DNA from: Candidatus Enterousia sp.
Lineage (GTDB): Bacteria > Pseudomonadota > Alphaproteobacteria > Rs-D84
Direction: 5' to 3'
Assembly (NCBI GenBank): GCA_045635705.1
Contig: JAZTWE010000006.1
Span: 1 to 47,534, forward strand
DNA length: 47,534 bases
Every line of letters begins with the position of its first letter. Position 1 is the stretch's first letter. Below the pieces are notes generated by a model, which was not told where the DNA came from, did not search any database, and was given only the letters and a program-made list of their open reading frames with translations. Below, one piece after another: positions 1 through 47,050 of the stretch. The translations under genes and the position numbers were made by a program.

Positions 1-1
1 T

Positions 2-184
2 GGCTCACAGAACGACATGGCTACGATCCGACTTGTTGCCGCGTACTTGCAGGGCCAGGGTGTGGCCCAATCGCGTTTTGAAATAATCGGTATGGGTTCG
101 TCGAATCCAATTGCGTCCAACAGTACTGTTGATGGTCGTGCCCAAAACAGACGCGTTGAAATCAAGATTATTCCAAATAAATAA
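2..184 (+). CDS. OmpA-family (OmpA_C/MotB-like) peptidoglycan-binding protein, C-terminal fragment; 5' end outside window
   Basis: Frame 2 reads ...FEIIGMGSSNPIASNSTVDGRAQNRRVEIKIIPNK, then TAA at 182-184. The ...G-R-A-x-N-R-R-V-E-I ending is the classic OmpA C-terminal signature. Confidence 0.8.
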   Translation, partial: GSQNDMATIRLVAAYLQGQGVAQSRFEIIGMGSSNPIASNSTVDGRAQNRRVEIKIIPNK

Positions 185-231: not shown

Positions 232-369
232 TTGCTAAAAATGGTGCAATGCGTTAGAATACAAGGCGTAGAAAAGAAAAAACAATGCCGAAAAAAATGG
301 GACGATTTTCCGCGGCATAATTTTTTTTGAAAAAATCCCTGAAATCTGCATTTTTTATTCCCCCTTTTT
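232..369 (+). promoter_or_regulatory. Conserved expression cassette, copy 1: sigma70-like promoter plus about 105-nt leader containing an 11-codon uORF
   Basis: TTGCTA (232-237), N17, TAGAAT (255-260). uORF ATG 285 to TAA 320 encodes MPKKMGRFSAA. The leader from about 275 to 369 is almost identical to 14545-14639 and to the reverse complement of 27099-27193. Confidence 0.6.
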
Positions 370-1401
370 ATGCCGAATCTAATCGTCGGGTTGGGTGCAG
401 TTTTTTTGATAATATGCTCAATAACAAGTGTGTCGTATGGTGCAAGCAGGCCATCGTGTGTACATTGTTCTTCGTCTAGCTTGGGGGGCGAGAATAGCTG
501 TCATTCAGCGGGTTGGAATAGTAATGTGGGTGCCTTTTATGGCTATGATGATAGTTGTCATTGTATTGCAAGTCCTAACATTAATTGTGTCATAAGTAAT
601 CACGATACCGTGGTTTATTCAGTAAAGGAATGTTATGAAGATTCTGACTGTGGTACAGGAAAAGCGTGTCTTTCCAATAAGTGTGAATCAAAAACTACTT
701 CTTGTAGCTACAAGGATACAGATTGGACCACCAGTGGCAGTGTACAAACAAAAGTAGCTGGCAGTTATAATTCTTCTTCTGGTAGTTGTGTTTACACTAC
801 TTATGTTCGATGTAGTTCAGCTTATTACAGTTCGGCTGGGATATCAGAAACAAGCAGTTCTTCTTCAACGGTGGCAACACTGACATCTAAGTTAGGTTGC
901 GCAAAGTGTCCTAGTTATTCGAGTTCTGTGGCTGGTTCAGATAGTATCGCAGACTGTTTGTGTAACAGTGGGTATTATATGTCCAGTAATACCTGTCAAC
1001 GTTGTCCTGCGTTTGGTCAAAGTGAGTCGTGCTATGATATTGTTTATCAGGTTTTTAATGACTATTTTGGTTGGAATGATACTGACAGATATGATAATGA
1101 TGGTATTGACACACTAGATGACTATGGTCCAGGTGTTGATGATTTTGAAGATCTTGTTAACGAGATTGGTGTTTTATTCAAAGGCGAAGAAGATTTGTGT
1201 GGGCATCTAGATTGCAGGGAAAACTACACCGGTTACACAATGATTTCGTTGATAGAAGTAATAGATAGTTATTTTGGTGTGGGGACGCAGTATGGCCTCA
1301 GTCCCCAGGGTTCAGCAGCAATATCGAAATGTTTTATTCCTGTTGGTAATTATGTAAACGATATTGGTGCTTTTACAATAACAAGTCCATGTGGTTATTA
1401 A
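370..1401 (+). CDS. Secreted cysteine-rich protein, MP(K/N)xIVGLG family member 1
   Basis: 343-aa ORF. N-terminal signal peptide MPNLIVGLGAVFLIICSITSVSYG is shared with 14640 and 27098(-). Many Cys, including C-A-K-C-P and C-Q-R-C-P modules; a Ser-rich tract; an acidic D/E-rich C-terminal half; ends ...DIGAFTITSPCGY. No SD; C/T-rich region upstream of the ATG. Confidence 0.75.
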   Translation: MPNLIVGLGAVFLIICSITSVSYGASRPSCVHCSSSSLGGENSCHSAGWNSNVGAFYGYDDSCHCIASPNINCVISNHDTVVYSVKECYEDSDCGTGKACLSNKCESKTTSCSYKDTDWTTSGSVQTKVAGSYNSSSGSCVYTTYVRCSSAYYSSAGISETSSSSSTVATLTSKLGCAKCPSYSSSVAGSDSIADCLCNSGYYMSSNTCQRCPAFGQSESCYDIVYQVFNDYFGWNDTDRYDNDGIDTLDDYGPGVDDFEDLVNEIGVLFKGEEDLCGHLDCRENYTGYTMISLIEVIDSYFGVGTQYGLSPQGSAAISKCFIPVGNYVNDIGAFTITSPCGY

Positions 1402-14501: not shown

Positions 14502-14639
14502 TTGCCTAAAATTGCGCAAGGCGTTATAATCTGTGGTGTAGAAAGTAAAAAACAATGCCGAAAAAAATGGGACGATTTTCTTCGGCATAATTTTTTTTGA
14601 AAAAATCCCTGAAATCTGCATTTTTTATTCCCCCTTTTT
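14502..14639 (+). promoter_or_regulatory. Conserved expression cassette, copy 2: promoter plus leader with uORF/hairpin
   Basis: TTGCCT (14502-14507), N17, TATAAT (14525-14530). uORF 14555-14590 encodes MPKKMGRFSSA. Hairpin arms are ATGCCGAA (14555-14562) and TTCGGCAT (14581-14588), with inner AAAA/TTTT pairs, followed by AA plus T8 (14591-14598). No SD before the ATG at 14640. Confidence 0.65.
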
Positions 14640-15725
14640 ATGCCGAAAATAATCGTCGGTTTGGGTGTGGCTATGCTGGGGACAGTATTGAATATCGGGG
14701 CGGCGCAATCAGGAACTGTATATTCGGGCGTATGCGCAACCAGCAGTCAAAATTCAAACAAAGGGTATTATGTTGTTGATTATTTCTCTGATGCGGCCCC
14801 ATATCAGATTAGCGCAATCCCATCAATATCGACGGTGTATAAAGGTTGTACGGCTGGAACCTATTATAAAATTTTGCCACAAAATTATAACTTTCCGACA
14901 AGTTCTGCTTTTTACGGTACTAGTGGGATAGTCTATTCTTGTTCCAGTTGCGTATCGGGCTATGAATTACAAACTATTTCTGGACCGTTTTTGTATGCGG
15001 ATGTCAGCTCAGGCAGCAATGAAGTTATGTGCACATCTGTTTCTGGTGCGACAATAAAATATTGTGTGCCATCTGGCAGCAGTTCAGGCACCTGTTCATC
15101 TTCGAATTGTGTTTCCGGGAATTGGTATTCGCATAGCACAGGATATGTGTCGCGTGATTATCGATATTGTTCGTCGGGGACATGCGTGACAGAAACACAA
15201 TATGCGTGTGATTATGGTTATTTTGGTAATTCTGGTTCAACATCAGCCAGTGGTTGTACCAAGTGTCCCCCGTTGCGCCTGGCATTTAAAAATCTAGAAA
15301 CAGGCAACGTGGGATATCATGATTACCCAACAACAACCCCGTATGTGGCAATGACATCACTTACAGGATGTTATGTCATTGCCGAACCAAATGTGACAGA
15401 ATTTGTGGATACTGCAGGAACATTTGTGATGGGTGACGGGTATGGCAGCCTAACCAATTCCTGTTATCTTAGTTATGGACAATGTAATAATGTTGTCCCT
15501 GTATGTAATAAGAATACAGCGTCTGGTATTCAGGGGATTCAGACCGCGGCCAGTGGTGGAACCGTGTGCTGGTGTAATATCCCGCAAACAGGAAAAAGCT
15601 TCAAGCATTTTGATTCAGCGGCCTGTTCTTCTGCGTGCACTACGTCGGCCTGTCTTCAAAGGATAATGGGCCATTCGGCTAGTGGCTATGCCCCAACTGT
15701 TTCGCTGACCGATTTAGGGTGCTGA
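14640..15725 (+). CDS. Secreted cysteine-rich protein, MPKIIVGLG family member 2
   Basis: 361 aa. Signal peptide MPKIIVGLGVAMLGTVLNIGAAQS; its first 16 codons are identical at DNA level to 27098(-). Contains a C-T-K-C-P module, DTAGTF motif and a VCWCN...C-x3-C-x3-C C-terminal module. Confidence 0.75.
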   Translation: MPKIIVGLGVAMLGTVLNIGAAQSGTVYSGVCATSSQNSNKGYYVVDYFSDAAPYQISAIPSISTVYKGCTAGTYYKILPQNYNFPTSSAFYGTSGIVYSCSSCVSGYELQTISGPFLYADVSSGSNEVMCTSVSGATIKYCVPSGSSSGTCSSSNCVSGNWYSHSTGYVSRDYRYCSSGTCVTETQYACDYGYFGNSGSTSASGCTKCPPLRLAFKNLETGNVGYHDYPTTTPYVAMTSLTGCYVIAEPNVTEFVDTAGTFVMGDGYGSLTNSCYLSYGQCNNVVPVCNKNTASGIQGIQTAASGGTVCWCNIPQTGKSFKHFDSAACSSACTTSACLQRIMGHSASGYAPTVSLTDLGC

Positions 15726-26150: not shown

Positions 26151-27098
26151 TCAGTTGCACCCAATCGCATTACGGACAATTTCATTGGATGCAATTAGGG
26201 ATTGGCACATTTTTGTACATAAATTTTGTCGTGGGCAACTCTCAGCAGCCATAACGCTTTTACGCTTACTTGAGATATTACACCAACAGTATGTATCAAG
26301 GGCGCTAGAATTGTTTTTTATGTTACTGTCGACCTGATACAATTCCCCGGCGGTCGTAGAACACACACCTATGACATTACCGCTTTCGTTGTTATAGTCC
26401 ATGCAACTGTCGGAATAATGGCAATCATCGTCATACATGAATGTCCCCGTGCTGTCTGTACGACTGGCGTCCGACTGTACCAGATAGCAATCATATACAG
26501 AATTGCTGCCCTGGTCGATATTTATCACATCGGATGCCAGTTTCCCCGTCGGGCACAATGTGCACCCGGAACATGAAGCCGACATGTCGGTTTCGTTATA
26601 TGTGCATTTGGGGGTTCCGTAATGATTTGCTACGCATTCTGCATCCACCAGTACCTCACAATACGAATCTGATGTTCCTGGTTCACGGCATACCGCCGAT
26701 AGCGTCATATCATACCCAACAGGGTCAAACAAGATGGGAATAATACAATCATCATCATCATTGCATTCAATCGCCCCTATGACGGGGATGTCCCCAATAT
26801 CAGGATCGAGCATCCCACCATTAAGCTGGCATCCCTGGACGGTTGTTGATAAGGCCTTGCCGCTGGAATCTTTACATGGGATTGTTATGTATGTCGTGCC
26901 GAGTGTATATGTTGAACTACAACTTGCGCATCCACGAATTGTATATGAAACGCCTGTGCTTCCTGATGGGCAGCGTTGTGTGCTTTGTGCACCGTATGTT
27001 AGACAATTTACGGGTTCTACATCTGCCGCCATTGCACCTGTTGATAACAGTACTGTCCCCAGCATAGCCACACCCAAACCGACGATTATTTTCGGCAT
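26151..27098 (-). CDS. Secreted cysteine-rich protein, MPKIIVGLG family member 3
   Basis: 315 aa. Signal peptide MPKIIVGLGVAMLGTVLLSTGAMA, C-T-L-C-P-T-G module, DSTGTF motif, and YCWCN...C-x5-C-x3-C C-terminal module. The 5' end plus upstream 138 bp are identical to copy 2. Confidence 0.75.
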   Translation of the reverse strand: MPKIIVGLGVAMLGTVLLSTGAMAADVEPVNCLTYGAQSTQRCPSGSTGVSYTIRGCASCSSTYTLGTTYITIPCKDSSGKALSTTVQGCQLNGGMLDPDIGDIPVIGAIECNDDDDCIIPILFDPVGYDMTLSAVCREPGTSDSYCEVLVDAECVANHYGTPKCTYNETDMSASCSGCTLCPTGKLASDVINIDQGSNSVYDCYLVQSDASRTDSTGTFMYDDDCHYSDSCMDYNNESGNVIGVCSTTAGELYQVDSNIKNNSSALDTYCWCNISSKRKSVMAAESCPRQNLCTKMCQSLIASNEIVRNAIGCN

Positions 27099-27236
27099 AA
27101 AAAGGGGGAATAAAAAATGCAGATTTCAGGGATTTTTTCAAAAAAAATTATGCCGCGGAAAATCGTCCCATTTTTTTCGGCATTGTTTTTTACTTTCTAC
27201 ACCACAGATTATAACGCCTTGCGCAATTTTAGGCAA
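27099..27236 (-). promoter_or_regulatory. Conserved expression cassette, copy 3 (inverted relative to copy 2)
   Basis: The reverse complement carries TTGCCT (27236-27231), N17, TATAAT (27213-27208), and uORF 27183-27148 (MPKKMGRFSAA). It is identical to 14502-14639 except a CG/TT dinucleotide in the 3' hairpin arm. Confidence 0.65.
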
Positions 27237-27274: not shown

Positions 27275-27390
27275 ATATCATCCCGTGGTCATCCGTCTGC
27301 GCTTTGCTGCGTCGAGACAAAAGCCACGGGATGACAGAATTTTTTTGCAAAAATTCTGTTTATAAATACTCAACCAAACTTTTGTTTATA
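27275..27390. repeat. Partial copy of the MITE-like palindromic repeat
   Basis: TCATCCCGTGG...CCACGGGATGACAGAATTTTTTTGCAAAAATTCTGTTTATAAATACTCAACCAAACTTTTGTTTAT matches the right half of 42625-42833 with a few substitutions. Confidence 0.65.
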
Positions 27391-27445
27391 TAAGTAATTA
27401 TTTATTCCACATTCGAACTCTGTACTCTGAAATCTGAAAACTGAT

Positions 27446-43592: not shown

Positions 43593-43862
43593 ATGAAAAG
43601 GTTGATGTTTTGTTTTATAACATTGTCTGCCATGGCGGTTGAACCAGGCACAGAATGTCCGCCTGGACGTGTTTTATTAGATGCCCCATATGTAAGTTTG
43701 GTTTCTGATTCTTGTCCTGTTGGGACAATCGATATGGGGCCAGCAGAATCTTGTTTGGGCTTGTTCATAGCAGATACATGTTATATGTACGCACCGGTGG
43801 GCGTATCGTACACTGATACCAGTGGGACATACGAATACATAGAACCGTGTGCAATGCAGTAA
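43593..43862 (+). CDS. Short secreted Cys-rich protein carrying the family D-x-x-G-T-(F/Y) motif
   Basis: Signal MKRLMFCFITLSAMA. ECPPGRV and SCPVGT (C-P-x-G) motifs. The C-terminus DTSGTYEYIEPCAMQ parallels DIGAFTITSPCGY, DTAGTFVMG and DSTGTFMYDDDC in the long paralogs. Confidence 0.6.
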   Translation: MKRLMFCFITLSAMAVEPGTECPPGRVLLDAPYVSLVSDSCPVGTIDMGPAESCLGLFIADTCYMYAPVGVSYTDTSGTYEYIEPCAMQ

Positions 43863-45155: not shown

Positions 45156-45278
45156 GCCTATAATTATATCACAAAAAAGAATTGTTTTAAACAGGTTTTT
45201 CAATCTTGTTTTTTGGTTGAGGTTTTATCTATGGCTGGCTATACTGTGAATATATTCATAATACCAAAAGGAATAAAG

Positions 45279-46172
45279 ATGAAAAAAATATCAATTTTTG
45301 CATTTTTGGCTGTTGTTTCAATGCCTGCATTTGCAACAGAAATGGTGGACCAGGAATTGTCTCTTGCAGAGCAAGCTGCCCAAAATACAAACGAGGAATA
45401 TCCTGAGGTTAAAACATCAGAAACAAGCAGTTTGCTGCATGGTGTTCAGCTAGGTGTGGGGGTATCTGCTACGGGTGGGTTGAATGGTTTTGTTGGTTAT
45501 GCAAACAAAGATTTTGACTCCTTTTGGGCAAAAAGATTTGGGGTTCGTTTTGATTTTGCCATGACTAAGCCTGTGAAGTCGTTGATAGATAAAGGCATTG
45601 ATTCAGTAATCGGTGACGATGGTGTTGATGTTGGTGATAGTTTGACAATTACAGATGGAAAAATAGATGCCCAGCATTTTGCTGCTTTGGTTGATTTTTA
45701 TCCATTTGGTAATACATGGTTCTTGGGCGGCTGGCGTATAACGGGTGGTTATGCATTTGGTAATATGGATATGTCTGCAAACATCGCAGGAACATTTGAT
45801 GGGCCATCTGGTCGCTATGAATTTGAATTGGCGGGTCAGAAATACGCATACACTGGCAATTCTGTGCATGGTACCGCGGATTTAGATTGGAAGTATCGTG
45901 GCCCATATTTGGGAACTGGTTTTGATATTGGGTTATTCGCAGGGTTAAAGATTTATGTCGATGCAGGTGTTGTGTTTACAAACAAATCTGCTGAATTGTC
46001 GTTGGATGTTCCGACAACAAATCTGCAACAGTTTGATGGTACGACCTGGGTTGCGGCGGACGTGCCCGAACTGGAAGTGGTTAAAGAAAAAGTTTTGGCC
46101 GATGCGCAATCTGATTTAAATGATTTAAAGTTTTATCCTATGGTAAAGCTTGGATTTATGTATCGTTTCTAA
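45279..46172 (+). CDS. Outer-membrane protein, tandem paralog A
   Basis: AAGGA, then an ATG at 45279. Signal MKKISIFAFLAVVSMPAFA. C-terminus YPMVKLGFMYRF (aromatic-x-aromatic beta-signal). Clearly alignable with the next gene, e.g. WKYRGPYLGTGFDIGLFAGLKIYVDAGVVFTNK vs WRYHGPYLGTGFDIGIYRGLKMFIDMGVVFTNR. Confidence 0.7.
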   Translation: MKKISIFAFLAVVSMPAFATEMVDQELSLAEQAAQNTNEEYPEVKTSETSSLLHGVQLGVGVSATGGLNGFVGYANKDFDSFWAKRFGVRFDFAMTKPVKSLIDKGIDSVIGDDGVDVGDSLTITDGKIDAQHFAALVDFYPFGNTWFLGGWRITGGYAFGNMDMSANIAGTFDGPSGRYEFELAGQKYAYTGNSVHGTADLDWKYRGPYLGTGFDIGLFAGLKIYVDAGVVFTNKSAELSLDVPTTNLQQFDGTTWVAADVPELEVVKEKVLADAQSDLNDLKFYPMVKLGFMYRF

Positions 46173-46203
46173 AAAATAGCCACCTGCAGGTGGCTGTTTT
46201 TTT
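46172..46203 (+). terminator. Rho-independent terminator between the tandem paralogs
   Basis: AGCCACCTG-CAGGTGGCT palindrome followed by a T-run. Confidence 0.75.
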
Positions 46204-46255
46204 GCGGAATTTACGCCCGTTGTTCTGTTTTTATATGTGGTGTATTATTTTTTCT

Positions 46256-47050
46256 ATGAAATACACTGTTGCGATTTTTGCCTTGTTGATTATGTGGCCT
46301 GGGTTGTCTGTCGCAGGTTTGTTGAACGGAACTCAGTTTGGACTTGGGGTGTCGCTGACCAGTGGGATAAATGCGTCTGTTGGGTACCATAATCCGGCCA
46401 GCACCAGTTGTTGGGCGCGATATTTTGGGGTGCGCCTGGATGTTGCAAATACGGGGTCGGTAAAGTCTGCGGTTGATTCTGTGGCAGATGCGATTATGGG
46501 CGATGGCATTGATGTTGGTGATGGGGTGCGTATTCATGATGGCAAGATAGATGCGTGGAATTCGTCAGTCTTGCTTGATTGGTATCCTTTGCAGGGGGTA
46601 TGGCGATTATCCGGTGGCTATTATTGGGGAAATATGAATATGGCGGCCGCAATCAGTGGCAGTGTTGTTGGCGCACCAACCCAGCGTTTTTATTTTTACC
46701 TGGCTGGCGACCATTACTATTACAATGGTAATAATTTCAGTGGGAATACTCAGATAGATTGGCGCTATCACGGGCCTTATCTGGGCACAGGGTTTGATAT
46801 TGGTATCTATCGTGGATTGAAAATGTTTATAGATATGGGGGTGGTGTTTACGAATCGTCCTGCACAAATAACGATACATATCCCGCACGAGCAACTATAC
46901 ATATATAATAAAACAACAGGCAACTGGGCGCCGGTGACAATCCCGCAACTCGATTCGGATGTGGCGCGTGCAACGAATGACGGTAACCGTAAATTGTCAG
47001 ACTTTAAATACTATCCAGTTGTAAAACTGGGGCTGCTATACAGATTTTAA
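46256..47050 (+). CDS. Outer-membrane protein, tandem paralog B
   Basis: MKYTVAIFALLIMWPGLSVAG signal; C-terminus YPVVKLGLLYRF. ORF open from 46190. Confidence 0.7.
   Translation: MKYTVAIFALLIMWPGLSVAGLLNGTQFGLGVSLTSGINASVGYHNPASTSCWARYFGVRLDVANTGSVKSAVDSVADAIMGDGIDVGDGVRIHDGKIDAWNSSVLLDWYPLQGVWRLSGGYYWGNMNMAAAISGSVVGAPTQRFYFYLAGDHYYYNGNNFSGNTQIDWRYHGPYLGTGFDIGIYRGLKMFIDMGVVFTNRPAQITIHIPHEQLYIYNKTTGNWAPVTIPQLDSDVARATNDGNRKLSDFKYYPVVKLGLLYRF

What the first reader, a model, noticed from the sequence alone, without database searches (positions are those of the whole stretch)
370..1401. Family of secreted cysteine-rich proteins with hypervariable bodies and eukaryote-like C-x-x-C-P modules
**Members.** 370-1401, 14640-15725 and 26151-27098(-), plus the short genes 43119-43583 and 43593-43862.

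**Shared short motifs in otherwise unalignable, Cys-dense sequences.**
- The MP(K/N)xIVGLG signal peptide (long members only).
- C-x-(K/R/L)-C-P modules: GCAKCPSY, TCQRCPAF, GCTKCPP, GCTLCPTG.
- A D-x-x-G-(T/A)-(F/Y) motif followed by Cys.
- A C-terminal CWC(N/R)...C-x3-5-C-x3-C module, present in 14640, 27098(-) and 43119.

**Possible affinities (inference).** Stretches such as C..CP.G.Y....GS.S...C.C..GYY in member 1 recall ephrin-receptor-like/GCC2-GCC3 repeats and protist surface-antigen CxxC repeats. These are otherwise eukaryotic.

**Interpretation.** A conserved expression module with divergent exposed bodies is the pattern expected of a variable surface or secreted antigen, adhesin or host-mimicry family.
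Basis: partly seen in the sequence, partly recalled or inferred. Interest (0 to 1): 0.7.

Follow-up and report, generated by a model that had tools for sequence, protein, structure and literature searches.

The report
Flip-switch genes for secreted cysteine-rich proteins
Three genes for secreted cysteine-rich proteins in this small-genome gut bacterium each carry an ~80-base DNA segment that can flip to supply or remove the gene's ribosome-binding site and start codon, an undescribed on/off switch that would let the cell vary its surface.

Summary
The ORFs and motifs are real. The "conserved expression module" is a promoter, a leader hairpin and a 79-nt invertible cassette. The cassette is bounded by GACG...CGTC at 305-383, 14575-14653 and 27085-27163(-).

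As assembled, all three copies read TTCCCCCTTTTT-ATG, with no Shine-Dalgarno (OFF). Reverse-complemented, each gives GGGGGA-N8-ATG plus 10 sense codons in frame (MQISGIFSKKI-MP(R/K)KIVGLG...).

The same geometry holds in 43 of 47 distinct related loci: 40 OFF, 3 ON, none functional both ways. These come from gut Alphaproteobacteria MAGs (Candidatus Enterousia and relatives, which the literature places in order Rs-D84 with genomes under 1 Mb); one MAG has 22 copies.

Two metagenome contigs carry the identical locus with 100% identical flanks and the 78-nt core exactly reverse-complemented.

The "MP(N/K)xIVGL signal peptide" is the right recombination arm.

Bodies share a C-x-x-C-P...D-x-x-G-T-F...C module. 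Independent profiles support it for 370, 14640, 27098(-) and 43593, but not 43119. Two relatives pass Pfam thresholds for ephrin-receptor-like or TNFR-like repeats; the window proteins do not.

The recombinase is unidentified, and protein function is inferred.

The parts
232..260 (+). Promoter of member 1 (TTGCTA-17 nt-TAGAAT)
   Evidence: Promoter scan. The same promoter is conserved in all three copies and in relatives.
261..300 (+). Fixed part of the leader of member 1. It includes the left arm and loop of the hairpin (GCCGAAAAAAATGG), which lie outside the invertible cassette.
   Evidence: Alignment of the three copies and about 45 related loci. No Rfam family matches.
301..304 (.). Left crossover core GACG of switch 1
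   Evidence: By homology with L054 versus L061/L089, where the inversion boundaries fall inside GACG/CGTC.
305..383 (.). Invertible cassette of member 1 (79 nt), assembled OFF. On the minus strand it carries GGGGGA (359-364) and ATG (349-351), followed by 10 sense codons. It also contains the apparent start ATG at 370-372.
   Evidence: The reverse complement gives MQISGIFSKKI-MPRKIV-GLG in frame.
384..387 (.). Right crossover core CGTC of switch 1, inside codons 5-6 of the annotated ORF
370..1401 (+). Member 1 ORF as read in the OFF state. It is a cysteine-rich secreted protein (25 Cys in 343 aa) with a divergent body. Its C-terminal end ...CFIPVGNYVNDIGAFTITSPCGY matches the family module.
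   Evidence: module profile E=5.2e-6.
14502..14530 (+). Promoter of member 2 (TTGCCT-17 nt-TATAAT)
14571..14657 (.). Switch 2: GACG (14571-14574), 79-nt invertible cassette (14575-14653, OFF), CGTC (14654-14657)
14640..15725 (+). Member 2 ORF (OFF reading). It has the family module plus a C-terminal CWCN domain. Relatives P0002 and P0003 are 40-41% identical.
27208..27236 (-). Promoter of member 3
27081..27167 (.). Switch 3 (gene on the minus strand): GACG (27164-27167), cassette (27085-27163, OFF), CGTC (27081-27084)
26151..27098 (-). Member 3 ORF (OFF reading). It has the family module plus the CWCN domain. Closest relatives are L018 and the P0004/P0007 group.
43593..43862 (+). Short relative of the body family. 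It contains only the ...CY..P.G....D.SGTYEY...C module, has an ordinary signal peptide and Shine-Dalgarno, and has no switch.
   Evidence: E=1.7e-5 to L044; E=4.6e-4.
43119..43583 (+). Doubtful member. It is a secreted protein with only 6 Cys and shares the CWC tripeptide. Membership is not established.
   Evidence: E=0.011 against noise at 0.052.

Best explanation
Each of the three long genes is controlled by its own miniature DNA-inversion switch (inverton). Together they form a phase-variable family of secreted, disulfide-rich proteins.

**Architecture.**
- A fixed sigma-70-type promoter transcribes a leader with a hairpin.
- Immediately downstream lies a 78/79-nt cassette bounded by the inverted tetranucleotides GACG and CGTC.
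- The cassette has imperfect 15-18-nt inverted arms. The left arm is the 3' half of the hairpin. The right arm encodes M-P-N/K-L/I-N/I-V.

**OFF, as assembled in this window.** The sense strand ahead of the ORF is pyrimidine-rich (TTCCCCCTTTTT), with no Shine-Dalgarno. The ORF begins at a weak or accidental ATG/GTG/TTG.

**ON, after inversion.**
- The cassette presents GGGGGA 8 nt upstream of an ATG.
- That ATG is followed by 10 codons and the swapped arm, in frame with the body.
- This adds a positively charged N-region (MQISGIFSKKI-MPRKIV-) to the hydrophobic core, making a complete Sec signal peptide.

**Shown.**
- The cassette geometry.
- Its conservation across loci.
- The natural existence of both orientations at identical loci.

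**Inferred.**
- Inversion is catalysed by a site-specific recombinase encoded elsewhere in the genome.
- Switching is frequent and reversible within a population.
- Only the ON orientation yields protein.
- The products are surface-exposed or secreted proteins whose combinatorial expression varies the cell surface of a host-dependent gut bacterium. Possible pressures are immunity, phage or partner-cell attachment.
For: 1. **Module identity in the window.** 98% and about 90% identity over 170-189 nt, against 25-29% protein identity downstream.
2. **Start signals on the opposite strand.** In 44 of 46 distinct loci the reverse complement of the spacer has an SD-like motif (GGGGGA, GGGAGA or AGGAGA) 5-8 nt before an ATG. 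Exactly 10 sense codons follow, with 0 of 46 containing a stop.
3. **Stricter test over the whole cassette including arms.** 40 loci are OFF, 3 are ON, 4 are variant and 0 are functional both ways.
4. **Same locus in both orientations.** L054 and L061/L089 have identical flanks (117 nt upstream and 86 nt downstream). Their 78-nt core is an exact reverse complement bounded by GACG/CGTC. L054 reads GGGGGA-N9-ATG in frame.
5. **Same gene in both states in one 90% protein cluster.** P0004 and P0006 begin MQKSGVFNCNF-MPKINVGL. P0007 begins MPNLNVGL. The 15-nt arms are exactly swapped at the DNA level.
6. **An orthologous pair.** L012 is ON and L031 is OFF.
7. **Start-codon variation.** ATG/GTG/TTG at the apparent start is explained if that position is an internal M/V/L codon.
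8. **Copy number.** 22 copies in one MAG, and 3 in this 47.5-kb contig.
9. **Lineage.** The carrier MAGs are labelled Candidatus Enterousia or unclassified Alphaproteobacteria. The literature describes Enterousia (order Rs-D84) genomes as under 1 Mb and metabolically dependent (PMC12306168).
10. **Fast-evolving bodies.**
Against: - No recombinase gene lies in the window. The only candidates seen are XerC-like genes 2-3 genes away from family genes in two other MAGs, and these may simply be housekeeping Xer.
- The segment is very short. About 78-86 bp between crossovers is below the loop sizes usual for known invertases (own knowledge). Exact identity at the crossover is only 4 bp in the clean pair.
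- Both orientations were seen between assemblies, not within one clonal population. Switching rate and reversibility are therefore unproven.
- L091 (ON) and L052 (OFF) share flanks and swapped arms, but their 51-nt spacers differ by about 25%. Simple inversion is not the only process acting.
- In the window the OFF-state start is an ATG, so OFF may be leaky.
- Secretion, disulfide bonding and surface exposure are inferred from sequence only. AlphaFold models were unusable (pLDDT 46 and 35).
Confidence: 0.85

Rival explanations
1. The inversions are rare evolutionary accidents fixed in different strains. They would be quasi-palindrome or template-switch mutations at the hairpin, not a programmed reversible switch. 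The conserved 5' module would simply be a shared promoter and leader kept uniform by gene conversion.
For: Both orientations were observed only between assemblies. No dedicated invertase was found. The segment is unusually short. L091 and L052 differ in spacer allele as well as orientation.
Against: - The silent-strand SD, ATG, 10-codon frame and stop-free arms are maintained in 40 OFF loci that differ at many nucleotide positions. This needs continuing selection on the inverted state.
- Inversion boundaries are precise and the same in independent pairs.
- The flanks of L054 and L061 are 100% identical, so the event is very recent.
Confidence: 0.07
2. The conserved leader is a cis-regulatory RNA (riboswitch, attenuator or protein-binding leader). 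It would control translation of an SD-less mRNA. The GGGA hairpin loop would pair with the UCCC/CCCCC tracts, or the TTCGGCAT arm would alternately pair with the two ATGCCGAA copies.
For: The hairpin, the complementary GGGA/UCCC tracts and the duplicated ATGCCGAA are present. The region is conserved across species.
Against: - No Rfam family reaches threshold.
- The complementary tracts are fully explained as an SD on the other strand and as recombination arms.
- DNA inversion is directly observed.
- RNA folding gives the same arm-arm stem and energy in both states.
- An RNA role for the fixed hairpin could still coexist with the switch.
Confidence: 0.05
3. Assembly artefact: the inverted cassettes are mis-assemblies caused by inverted repeats.
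For: All data are metagenome assemblies. Repeats are multi-copy within genomes.
Against: - Exact identity at the boundaries is only 4 bp in L054/L061, far below assembler k-mers.
- ON states recur in independent samples and assemblers (L004, L005, L091, L054, L010, L012).
- Every ON state yields a perfect SD-ATG in-frame fusion.
Confidence: 0.02

Closest known systems
Mycoplasma penetrans mpl (P35) lipoprotein family with one invertible promoter per gene (Horino et al. 2003, as summarised in PMC2268961)
   Same: - A large family (38 genes) of variable surface proteins in a reduced-genome, host-dependent bacterium.
- The genes are scattered at several loci.
- Each gene is switched ON/OFF independently by its own small DNA inversion just upstream, which allows combinatorial expression.
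   Different: - There the invertible element carries the promoter. Here the promoter is fixed, and the element carries the Shine-Dalgarno, the start codon and the first 17 codons.
- Here one repeat arm lies inside the coding sequence.
- The products are lipoproteins there. Here they are cysteine-rich Sec-type secreted proteins with no lipobox.
- The host is an alphaproteobacterium, not a mollicute.
Mycoplasma agalactiae vpma / M. bovis vsp / M. pulmonis vsa systems driven by Xer-like tyrosine recombinases (PMC2268961)
   Same: - Conserved 5' regions and signal sequences on divergent bodies.
- Recombination sites in the 5' UTR or 5' coding region.
- A Xer-family recombinase acts as invertase. 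XerC-like genes lie near family genes in two related MAGs.
   Different: - Those systems move a single promoter or expression site among clustered silent genes.
- Here every gene keeps its own promoter and its own private cassette, and the genes are dispersed among housekeeping genes.
- The recombinase here is unidentified.
Clostridioides difficile cwpV and flgB switches: invertons located in the 5' leader between promoter and ORF (PMC2784873 and PMC5386303, listed; mechanism from own knowledge)
   Same: The switch lies downstream of a fixed promoter and acts after transcription initiation on a surface-protein gene.
   Different: - Those act through terminator formation or Rho-dependent effects on the leader RNA and do not contain the start codon.
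- They are 150-200 bp long.
- They are single-copy per target.
'Partial intergenic invertons' found by PhaVa and by Milman et al. (PMC10028968)
   Same: This is the generic class: one inverted repeat in the intergenic region and the other inside the gene.
   Different: - That paper treats many of them as probable shufflon-type systems that swap homologous domains, and reports that they are significantly longer than other invertons.
- This one is about 80 bp and toggles the translation start of one gene.
- It is multiplied across a gene family in an uncultured lineage not covered by isolate surveys.
Ephrin-receptor-like / TNFR-type cysteine-rich repeats (Pfam PF07699, PF23091)
   Same: The C-x-x-C-P-x-G-x-Y spacing recurs. 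Two switch-bearing relatives pass Pfam gathering scores: L017 scores 43.9 bits against a cutoff of 23.1, and L008 scores 43.8 against 33.2.
   Different: - The window proteins give no hit at E<=10.
- m1 against L017 gives E=0.24.
- Structure models are too poor to test the fold.

Membership tests
Site-specific DNA-inversion phase-variation switch (inverton) | A segment bounded by inverted repeats | tested here: met
   The cassette is bounded by GACG...CGTC and has 15-18-nt imperfect arms, 12-18 of 18 matches per locus.
Site-specific DNA-inversion phase-variation switch (inverton) | Both orientations occur naturally at the same locus with precise, reproducible boundaries | tested here: met
   L054 versus L061/L089 is an exact reverse complement with identical flanks. 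P0004/P0006 versus P0007 have swapped arms.
Site-specific DNA-inversion phase-variation switch (inverton) | Orientation changes an expression determinant | tested here: met
   Tested in silico only. The SD, the ATG and the in-frame extension are present in one orientation only in 43 of 47 loci. Expression itself was not measured.
Site-specific DNA-inversion phase-variation switch (inverton) | A cognate site-specific recombinase | tested here: inconclusive
   None is in the window. XerC-like genes lie near family genes in L036 and L023, scoring below the XerC equivalog cutoff. None was found in the other held loci.
Site-specific DNA-inversion phase-variation switch (inverton) | Reversible, high-frequency switching within a clonal population | not testable with these tools
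   This needs reads or cultures. Only assemblies were available.
Ephrin_rec_like / TNFR-like cysteine-rich repeat proteins | A significant match to the Pfam profile (PF07699 or PF23091) in the window proteins | tested here: not met
   There is no hit for any of the five window proteins at E<=10. Relatives L017 and L008 do pass.
Rs-D84 cysteine-rich secreted family defined here | The C-x-x-C-P ... C-Y-x-P ... D-x-x-G-T-(F/Y)-x-(F/Y)-x-x-x-C module | tested here: met
   A profile built from non-window members gives 2.3e-11 (m3), 5.2e-6 (m1), 6.5e-4 (m2) and 4.6e-4 (43593). 43119 does not match.
Mycoplasma-type variable surface lipoproteins | A lipobox (L-x-[GAS]-C) at the signal-peptide cleavage site | tested here: not met
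   The signal peptides end in A-x-A-type sites (..NIGAAQS..TGAMAAD..SVSYGAS) with no lipobox Cys (read directly).

The most novel reading that the evidence does not exclude
The switch may use a recombination mechanism unlike the classical invertases.

- It inverts only about 78-86 bp.
- Exact identity at the crossover can be as little as 4 bp (GACG).
- The left arm doubles as half of a conserved hairpin or cruciform whose other half is a direct repeat of the right arm.
- Cassettes appear to be exchanged between loci: same flanks, different spacer allele in L091 versus L052.

This could mean a structure-guided or otherwise non-canonical recombinase. Such an enzyme would work on tightly bent or extruded DNA, and it would also shuffle start-codon cassettes among more than 20 loci in a genome under 1 Mb.
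Probability: 0.15. Interest if true: 0.9.

Novelty: new variant of a known kind. Interest (0 to 1): 0.74.

Why it matters
**A major trait for an unstudied lineage.** Candidatus Enterousia (order Rs-D84) is a widespread, uncultured gut lineage with genomes under 1 Mb and no assigned lifestyle (PMC12306168). Up to about 22 individually switchable genes for secreted cysteine-rich proteins would be a large genomic investment. It is comparable to the variable lipoprotein families of mycoplasmas. It argues for intimate, antagonistic contact with a host, a partner cell or phages.

**An unusual mechanism.** The inverton flips the ribosome-binding site, the start codon and the N-region of the signal peptide, while the promoter stays fixed. 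At about 80 bp it is, to my knowledge, shorter than characterised invertons.

**Consequences for annotation and surveys.**
- Gene callers mis-start or truncate the OFF genes. NCBI-1401 as 291 aa, and P0002 starts 14 codons late.
- The short, imperfect repeats may also make such switches hard for repeat-based inverton detection to find (inference).

**A testable prediction.** Read-level orientation ratios at defined coordinates can be measured in existing gut metagenomes.

Tried and rejected
**Searches that gave nothing usable.**
- Pfam and NCBIfam on the five proteins gave nothing at threshold.
- Homology search with 370-1401 found only itself.
- An N-terminal profile of ON-form peptides against the 5.8-billion-protein set found nothing.
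- The first metagenome pattern, GACGTTTAGATTCGGCACAAA, found nothing.

**Structure.** AlphaFold2 gave pLDDT 46 for member 2 (5-sequence alignment) and 35 for member 1 (single sequence). Both were too poor for fold searches, so none were run.

**Leader as a known RNA.** Rfam found no match at gathering or permissive thresholds.

**OFF-state terminator.** I considered that the hairpin plus U-run in the window copies forms a terminator. The terminator scan did not flag it, and the U-run is absent in other species.

**Small peptide from the OFF-state minus strand.** This ORF was called as a 44-48-aa gene in L001 and L052. I set it aside for two reasons:
- The only antisense promoter-like site (436-409) is at chance level.
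- The ORF's conservation is explained by the arms and the promoter.

**Integron attC-like site.** I considered this from memory. There are no cassette arrays, and the core motifs do not fit.

**Recombinase hunt.** A regex search over all held loci found only two XerC-like genes.

**Genome-wide SD usage.** The check was uninformative, because the mechanical ORF starts are unreliable.
Full report
**1. What is in the window**

The 47.5-kb window is a complete contig of a bacterial chromosome with about 44% GC.
- It carries housekeeping genes: MreB, AccC, Der, MetRS, QueH, FabD/FabG-like, MnmG, IleRS, Nth-like, LpxI and DnaX. DnaX has the DUF3646 C-terminal domain.
- The three long ORFs of the finding (m1 370-1401, m2 14640-15725, m3 26151-27098 minus strand) encode proteins of 315-361 aa with 23-25 cysteines.
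- None matches a Pfam or NCBIfam family at threshold.

**2. The shared 5' end is a DNA module, not a protein motif**

- Aligning 200 nt upstream plus 110 nt of coding sequence shows near identity from a TTGCxx-17-TA(T/G)AAT promoter to about codon 17. Similarity then collapses abruptly.
- Repeat finding gives 189 nt at 98% for m2/m3 and 166-173 nt at 89-90% for m1.
- A 36-mer from the module occurs exactly three times, against 0 expected.
- Downstream, m2 and m3 are 25-29% identical as proteins. m1 is not alignable pairwise.
- There is no Shine-Dalgarno ahead of the three ATGs. The sequence there is TTATTCCCCCTTTTT-ATG.

**3. Relatives and organism**

- m2 has only four relatives among 5.8 billion protein clusters. 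m1 has none.
- A DNA pattern for the conserved first codons found 41 true loci in species-representative genomes. All are gut MAGs labelled Candidatus Enterousia or Alphaproteobacteria bacterium, from roe deer, sheep and other hosts. One MAG (RGIG3991) contributes 22.
- The literature places Enterousia in the uncultured order Rs-D84. Its genomes are mostly under 1 Mb and lack most biosynthetic pathways (PMC12306168).
- A full HMMER scan of 1.84 billion representative proteins with an m2-type profile found only 52 hits at E<=1e-3. Many of these have ordinary MKK signal peptides.

**4. The module contains an invertible cassette**

In all related loci the leader has three parts in order:
- a hairpin (GCCGAATCC-AATGGGAC-GATT....CGGCA);
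- a 50/51-nt spacer;
- the conserved "start" (A/G/T)TGCCGAA(TC/AA)TAA(A/T)(C/T)GTCGG.

In a few loci (L004/L005, L010, L012) the spacer is the reverse complement of the usual one. It then reads SD-N(5-8)-ATG plus 10 codons in frame with the ORF, giving MQKSGVFNCNF-MPKINVGL and similar.

Reverse-complementing the spacer of every other locus gives the same thing.
- 44 of 46 distinct loci have an SD-like motif followed by an ATG at the fixed position. None of the 46 has a stop in the 10 codons.
- A stricter test used the whole 78/79-nt cassette including the arms. It classed 40 loci OFF, 3 ON, 4 variant and none functional in both orientations.
- The SD sequence itself varies (GGGGGA, GGGAGA, AGGAGA, GAGGGA) while staying SD-like. 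The N-terminal peptide M(Q/R)K(S/T)G is conserved. Selection therefore acts on the strand that is silent in the assembled state.

**5. Direct evidence for inversion**

- A metagenome scan with the fixed part of the hairpin returned 11 true loci. L054 and L061/L089 are the same locus. The 117 nt upstream and 86 nt downstream are 100% identical, and the central 78 nt is an exact reverse complement. The boundary ambiguity is confined to GACG...CGTC.
- L054 is ON (GGGGGA-N9-ATG CGG ATT..., in frame). L061 and L089 are OFF.
- Independently, one 90%-identity protein cluster holds P0004 and P0006 (MQKSGVFNCNF-MPKINVGL...) and P0007 (MPNLNVGL...).
- At the DNA level the 15-nt arms of L052 (OFF), GTTTATTTTCGGCAT and GTGCCGAATCTAAAC, reappear exactly reverse-complemented and swapped in L004/L091 (ON).
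- The arms therefore flip with the spacer, and crossover is at the outer GACG/CGTC. This explains two things: why the "signal peptide" MP(N/K)(L/I)(N/I)V alternates, and why its first codon is ATG, GTG or TTG. In the ON protein it is an internal M/V/L codon.

**6. The window copies**

| Copy | Promoter | GACG | Cassette | CGTC |
|---|---|---|---|---|
| m1 | 232-260 | 301-304 | 305-383 | 384-387 |
| m2 | 14502-14530 | 14571-14574 | 14575-14653 | 14654-14657 |
| m3 (minus) | 27208-27236 | 27164-27167 | 27085-27163 | 27081-27084 |

- All three copies are OFF.
- Flipping gives GGGGGA-ATAAAAA-ATG and MQISGIFSKKI-MP(R/K)KIV-GLG... in frame.
- The ON form adds K/R residues ahead of the hydrophobic core. 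The OFF-state N-terminus of m1 (MPNLIVGLGAVFLII) has no positive charge. The ON form is therefore also the better Sec signal peptide; this is an inference.
- NCBI's own annotation truncates m1 to 291 aa.

**7. The protein bodies**

- Single-linkage BLAST of mature parts joins 41 of 49 proteins, including m1, m2, m3 and 43593, but not 43119.
- A recurrent module is C-x-x-C-P ... (S/T)-x-C-Y-(V/I/L)-P ... D-x-x-G-T-(F/Y)-x-(F/Y)-x-x-(D)-C-Y-Y. Many members end there. m2, m3, P0002 and P0004 add a CWCN...C...C domain.
- Profiles trained only on non-window members recover exactly m3, m1, 43593 and m2 among 622 window ORFs, with E from 2.3e-11 to 6.5e-4 and the next ORF at 0.34. The CWC profile recovers m2 and m3 (1e-9, 2e-8), but 43119 only marginally (0.011 against noise at 0.052).
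- Two switch-bearing relatives pass Pfam gathering thresholds for Ephrin_rec_like (L017) and TNFR_ELAPOR1_6th (L008). The family is thus related to TNFR/ephrin-type cysteine-rich repeats. This is not demonstrable for m1 itself.
- Some switch-bearing genes encode cysteine-poor proteins (L012/L031 at 3.6% Cys; L015 with a single Cys, in its signal peptide). The switch is therefore not tied to one body type.
- MetRS is 73% identical between this organism and that of L052. The closest family matches are 31% for m3 and 40-41% for m2, with relatives whose source organisms need not be the same.
- AlphaFold models were unusable.

**8. What is not known**

- No recombinase is encoded in the window.
- XerC-like genes lie 2-3 genes from family genes in two MAGs, but they could be housekeeping genes.
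- The 4-bp exact core in the clean pair and the ~80-bp loop are unusual for classical tyrosine or serine invertases (own knowledge).
- L091 (ON) and L052 (OFF) share flanks and arms but carry different spacer alleles. L052's spacer is nearly identical (49 of 51 nt) to that of another gene's switch, L013. This hints at cassette exchange between loci. L004 and L091 also read GATG at the left core, possibly a locked-ON variant.
- m2 and m3 are inverted relative to each other, 12.4 kb apart, with 98% identical modules. Inter-locus recombination is therefore conceivable. It was not tested.

**9. Comparison and novelty**

- Functionally this is closest to the Mycoplasma penetrans mpl family, which has one small inverton per gene. 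It also resembles the Xer-driven vpma/vsp/vsa systems (PMC2268961), the 5'-leader switches of C. difficile, and the generic "partial intergenic invertons" (PMC10028968).
- It differs in what is flipped: the SD, the start codon and the signal-peptide N-region, with a fixed promoter.
- It also differs in size (about 80 bp), in copy number relative to genome size, in the cysteine-rich TNFR-like cargo, and in lineage.
- Full-text searches found nothing on phase variation in Enterousia or Rs-D84. They found no description of an SD/start-codon inverton of this kind.
- I rate it a new variant of a known kind.

Noticed in passing
window 27321-27394 and 42765-42837; also 42625-42655 / 42803-42833: A repeated intergenic element, about 75 nt at 91% identity, contains small palindromes (CAGAATTTTTGCAAAAATTCTG, GTCATCCCGTGGCTTGACCACGGGAC) and an inverted pair of GATAAATAAAAGTTTAGATAAGTATTTATAA. 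Region 42662-42798 weakly resembles Rfam WsnRNA46 (Wolbachia sRNA 46) on both strands, at 38.7 bits against a gathering score of 65.3.
   Followed up: partly
window 27376-27389, 42626-42639(-), 42819-42832; L001 253-266, L011, L017, L028, L044 and others: The motif AAACTTTTRTTTAT occurs 4 times in the window (one of them with one mismatch), against 0.09 expected. It sits roughly 85-215 nt upstream of the switch leader in several related loci from different MAGs. It could be a regulator site or part of a mobile repeat.
   Followed up: partly
L004 / L091 versus L052 (related loci): ON-state contigs from four samples read GATG instead of GACG at the left crossover core, and they carry a different spacer allele from the OFF-state contig with identical flanks. 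This suggests a possible locked-ON variant and cassette exchange between loci.
   Followed up: partly
window 238-351 minus strand; L001 318-452(-); L052 70-216(-): In the OFF orientation the SD-ATG heads a 38-48-aa hydrophobic ORF that reads back through the hairpin and the promoter. Gene callers annotate it in relatives. There is no convincing antisense promoter.
   Followed up: partly
window 42870-43118: About 230 nt of apparently structured leader, including the hairpin CTCCTGAACATATTGTCAGGAGG, lies between a promoter-like TATAAT and the well-SD'd gene at 43119. No Rfam match was found.
   Followed up: partly
window 35018-38986(-) and 39435-42593(+): Four large ORFs (450, 403, 488 and 1052 aa) have no Pfam match at all. 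They lie next to the 43119/43593 small secreted-protein genes.
   Followed up: no
window 45213-46172 and 46190-47050: Two tandem paralogous ORFs of unknown function share a 90-nt stretch at 70% identity. Neither has a Pfam match.
   Followed up: no
window 1-183 and L004 1-627: Member 1 follows an OmpA-like gene ending ...AQNRRVEIKIIPNK plus a terminator. This is the same position as the P0004 gene in a related organism, although the two bodies are very different. It may be positional conservation with body replacement.
   Followed up: partly
L036 2435-3349(+), L023 6535-7443(-): XerC-like tyrosine recombinase genes (292 and 291 bits, below the 335-bit equivalog cutoff) lie 2-3 genes away from switch-bearing genes in two different MAGs.
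   Followed up: partly
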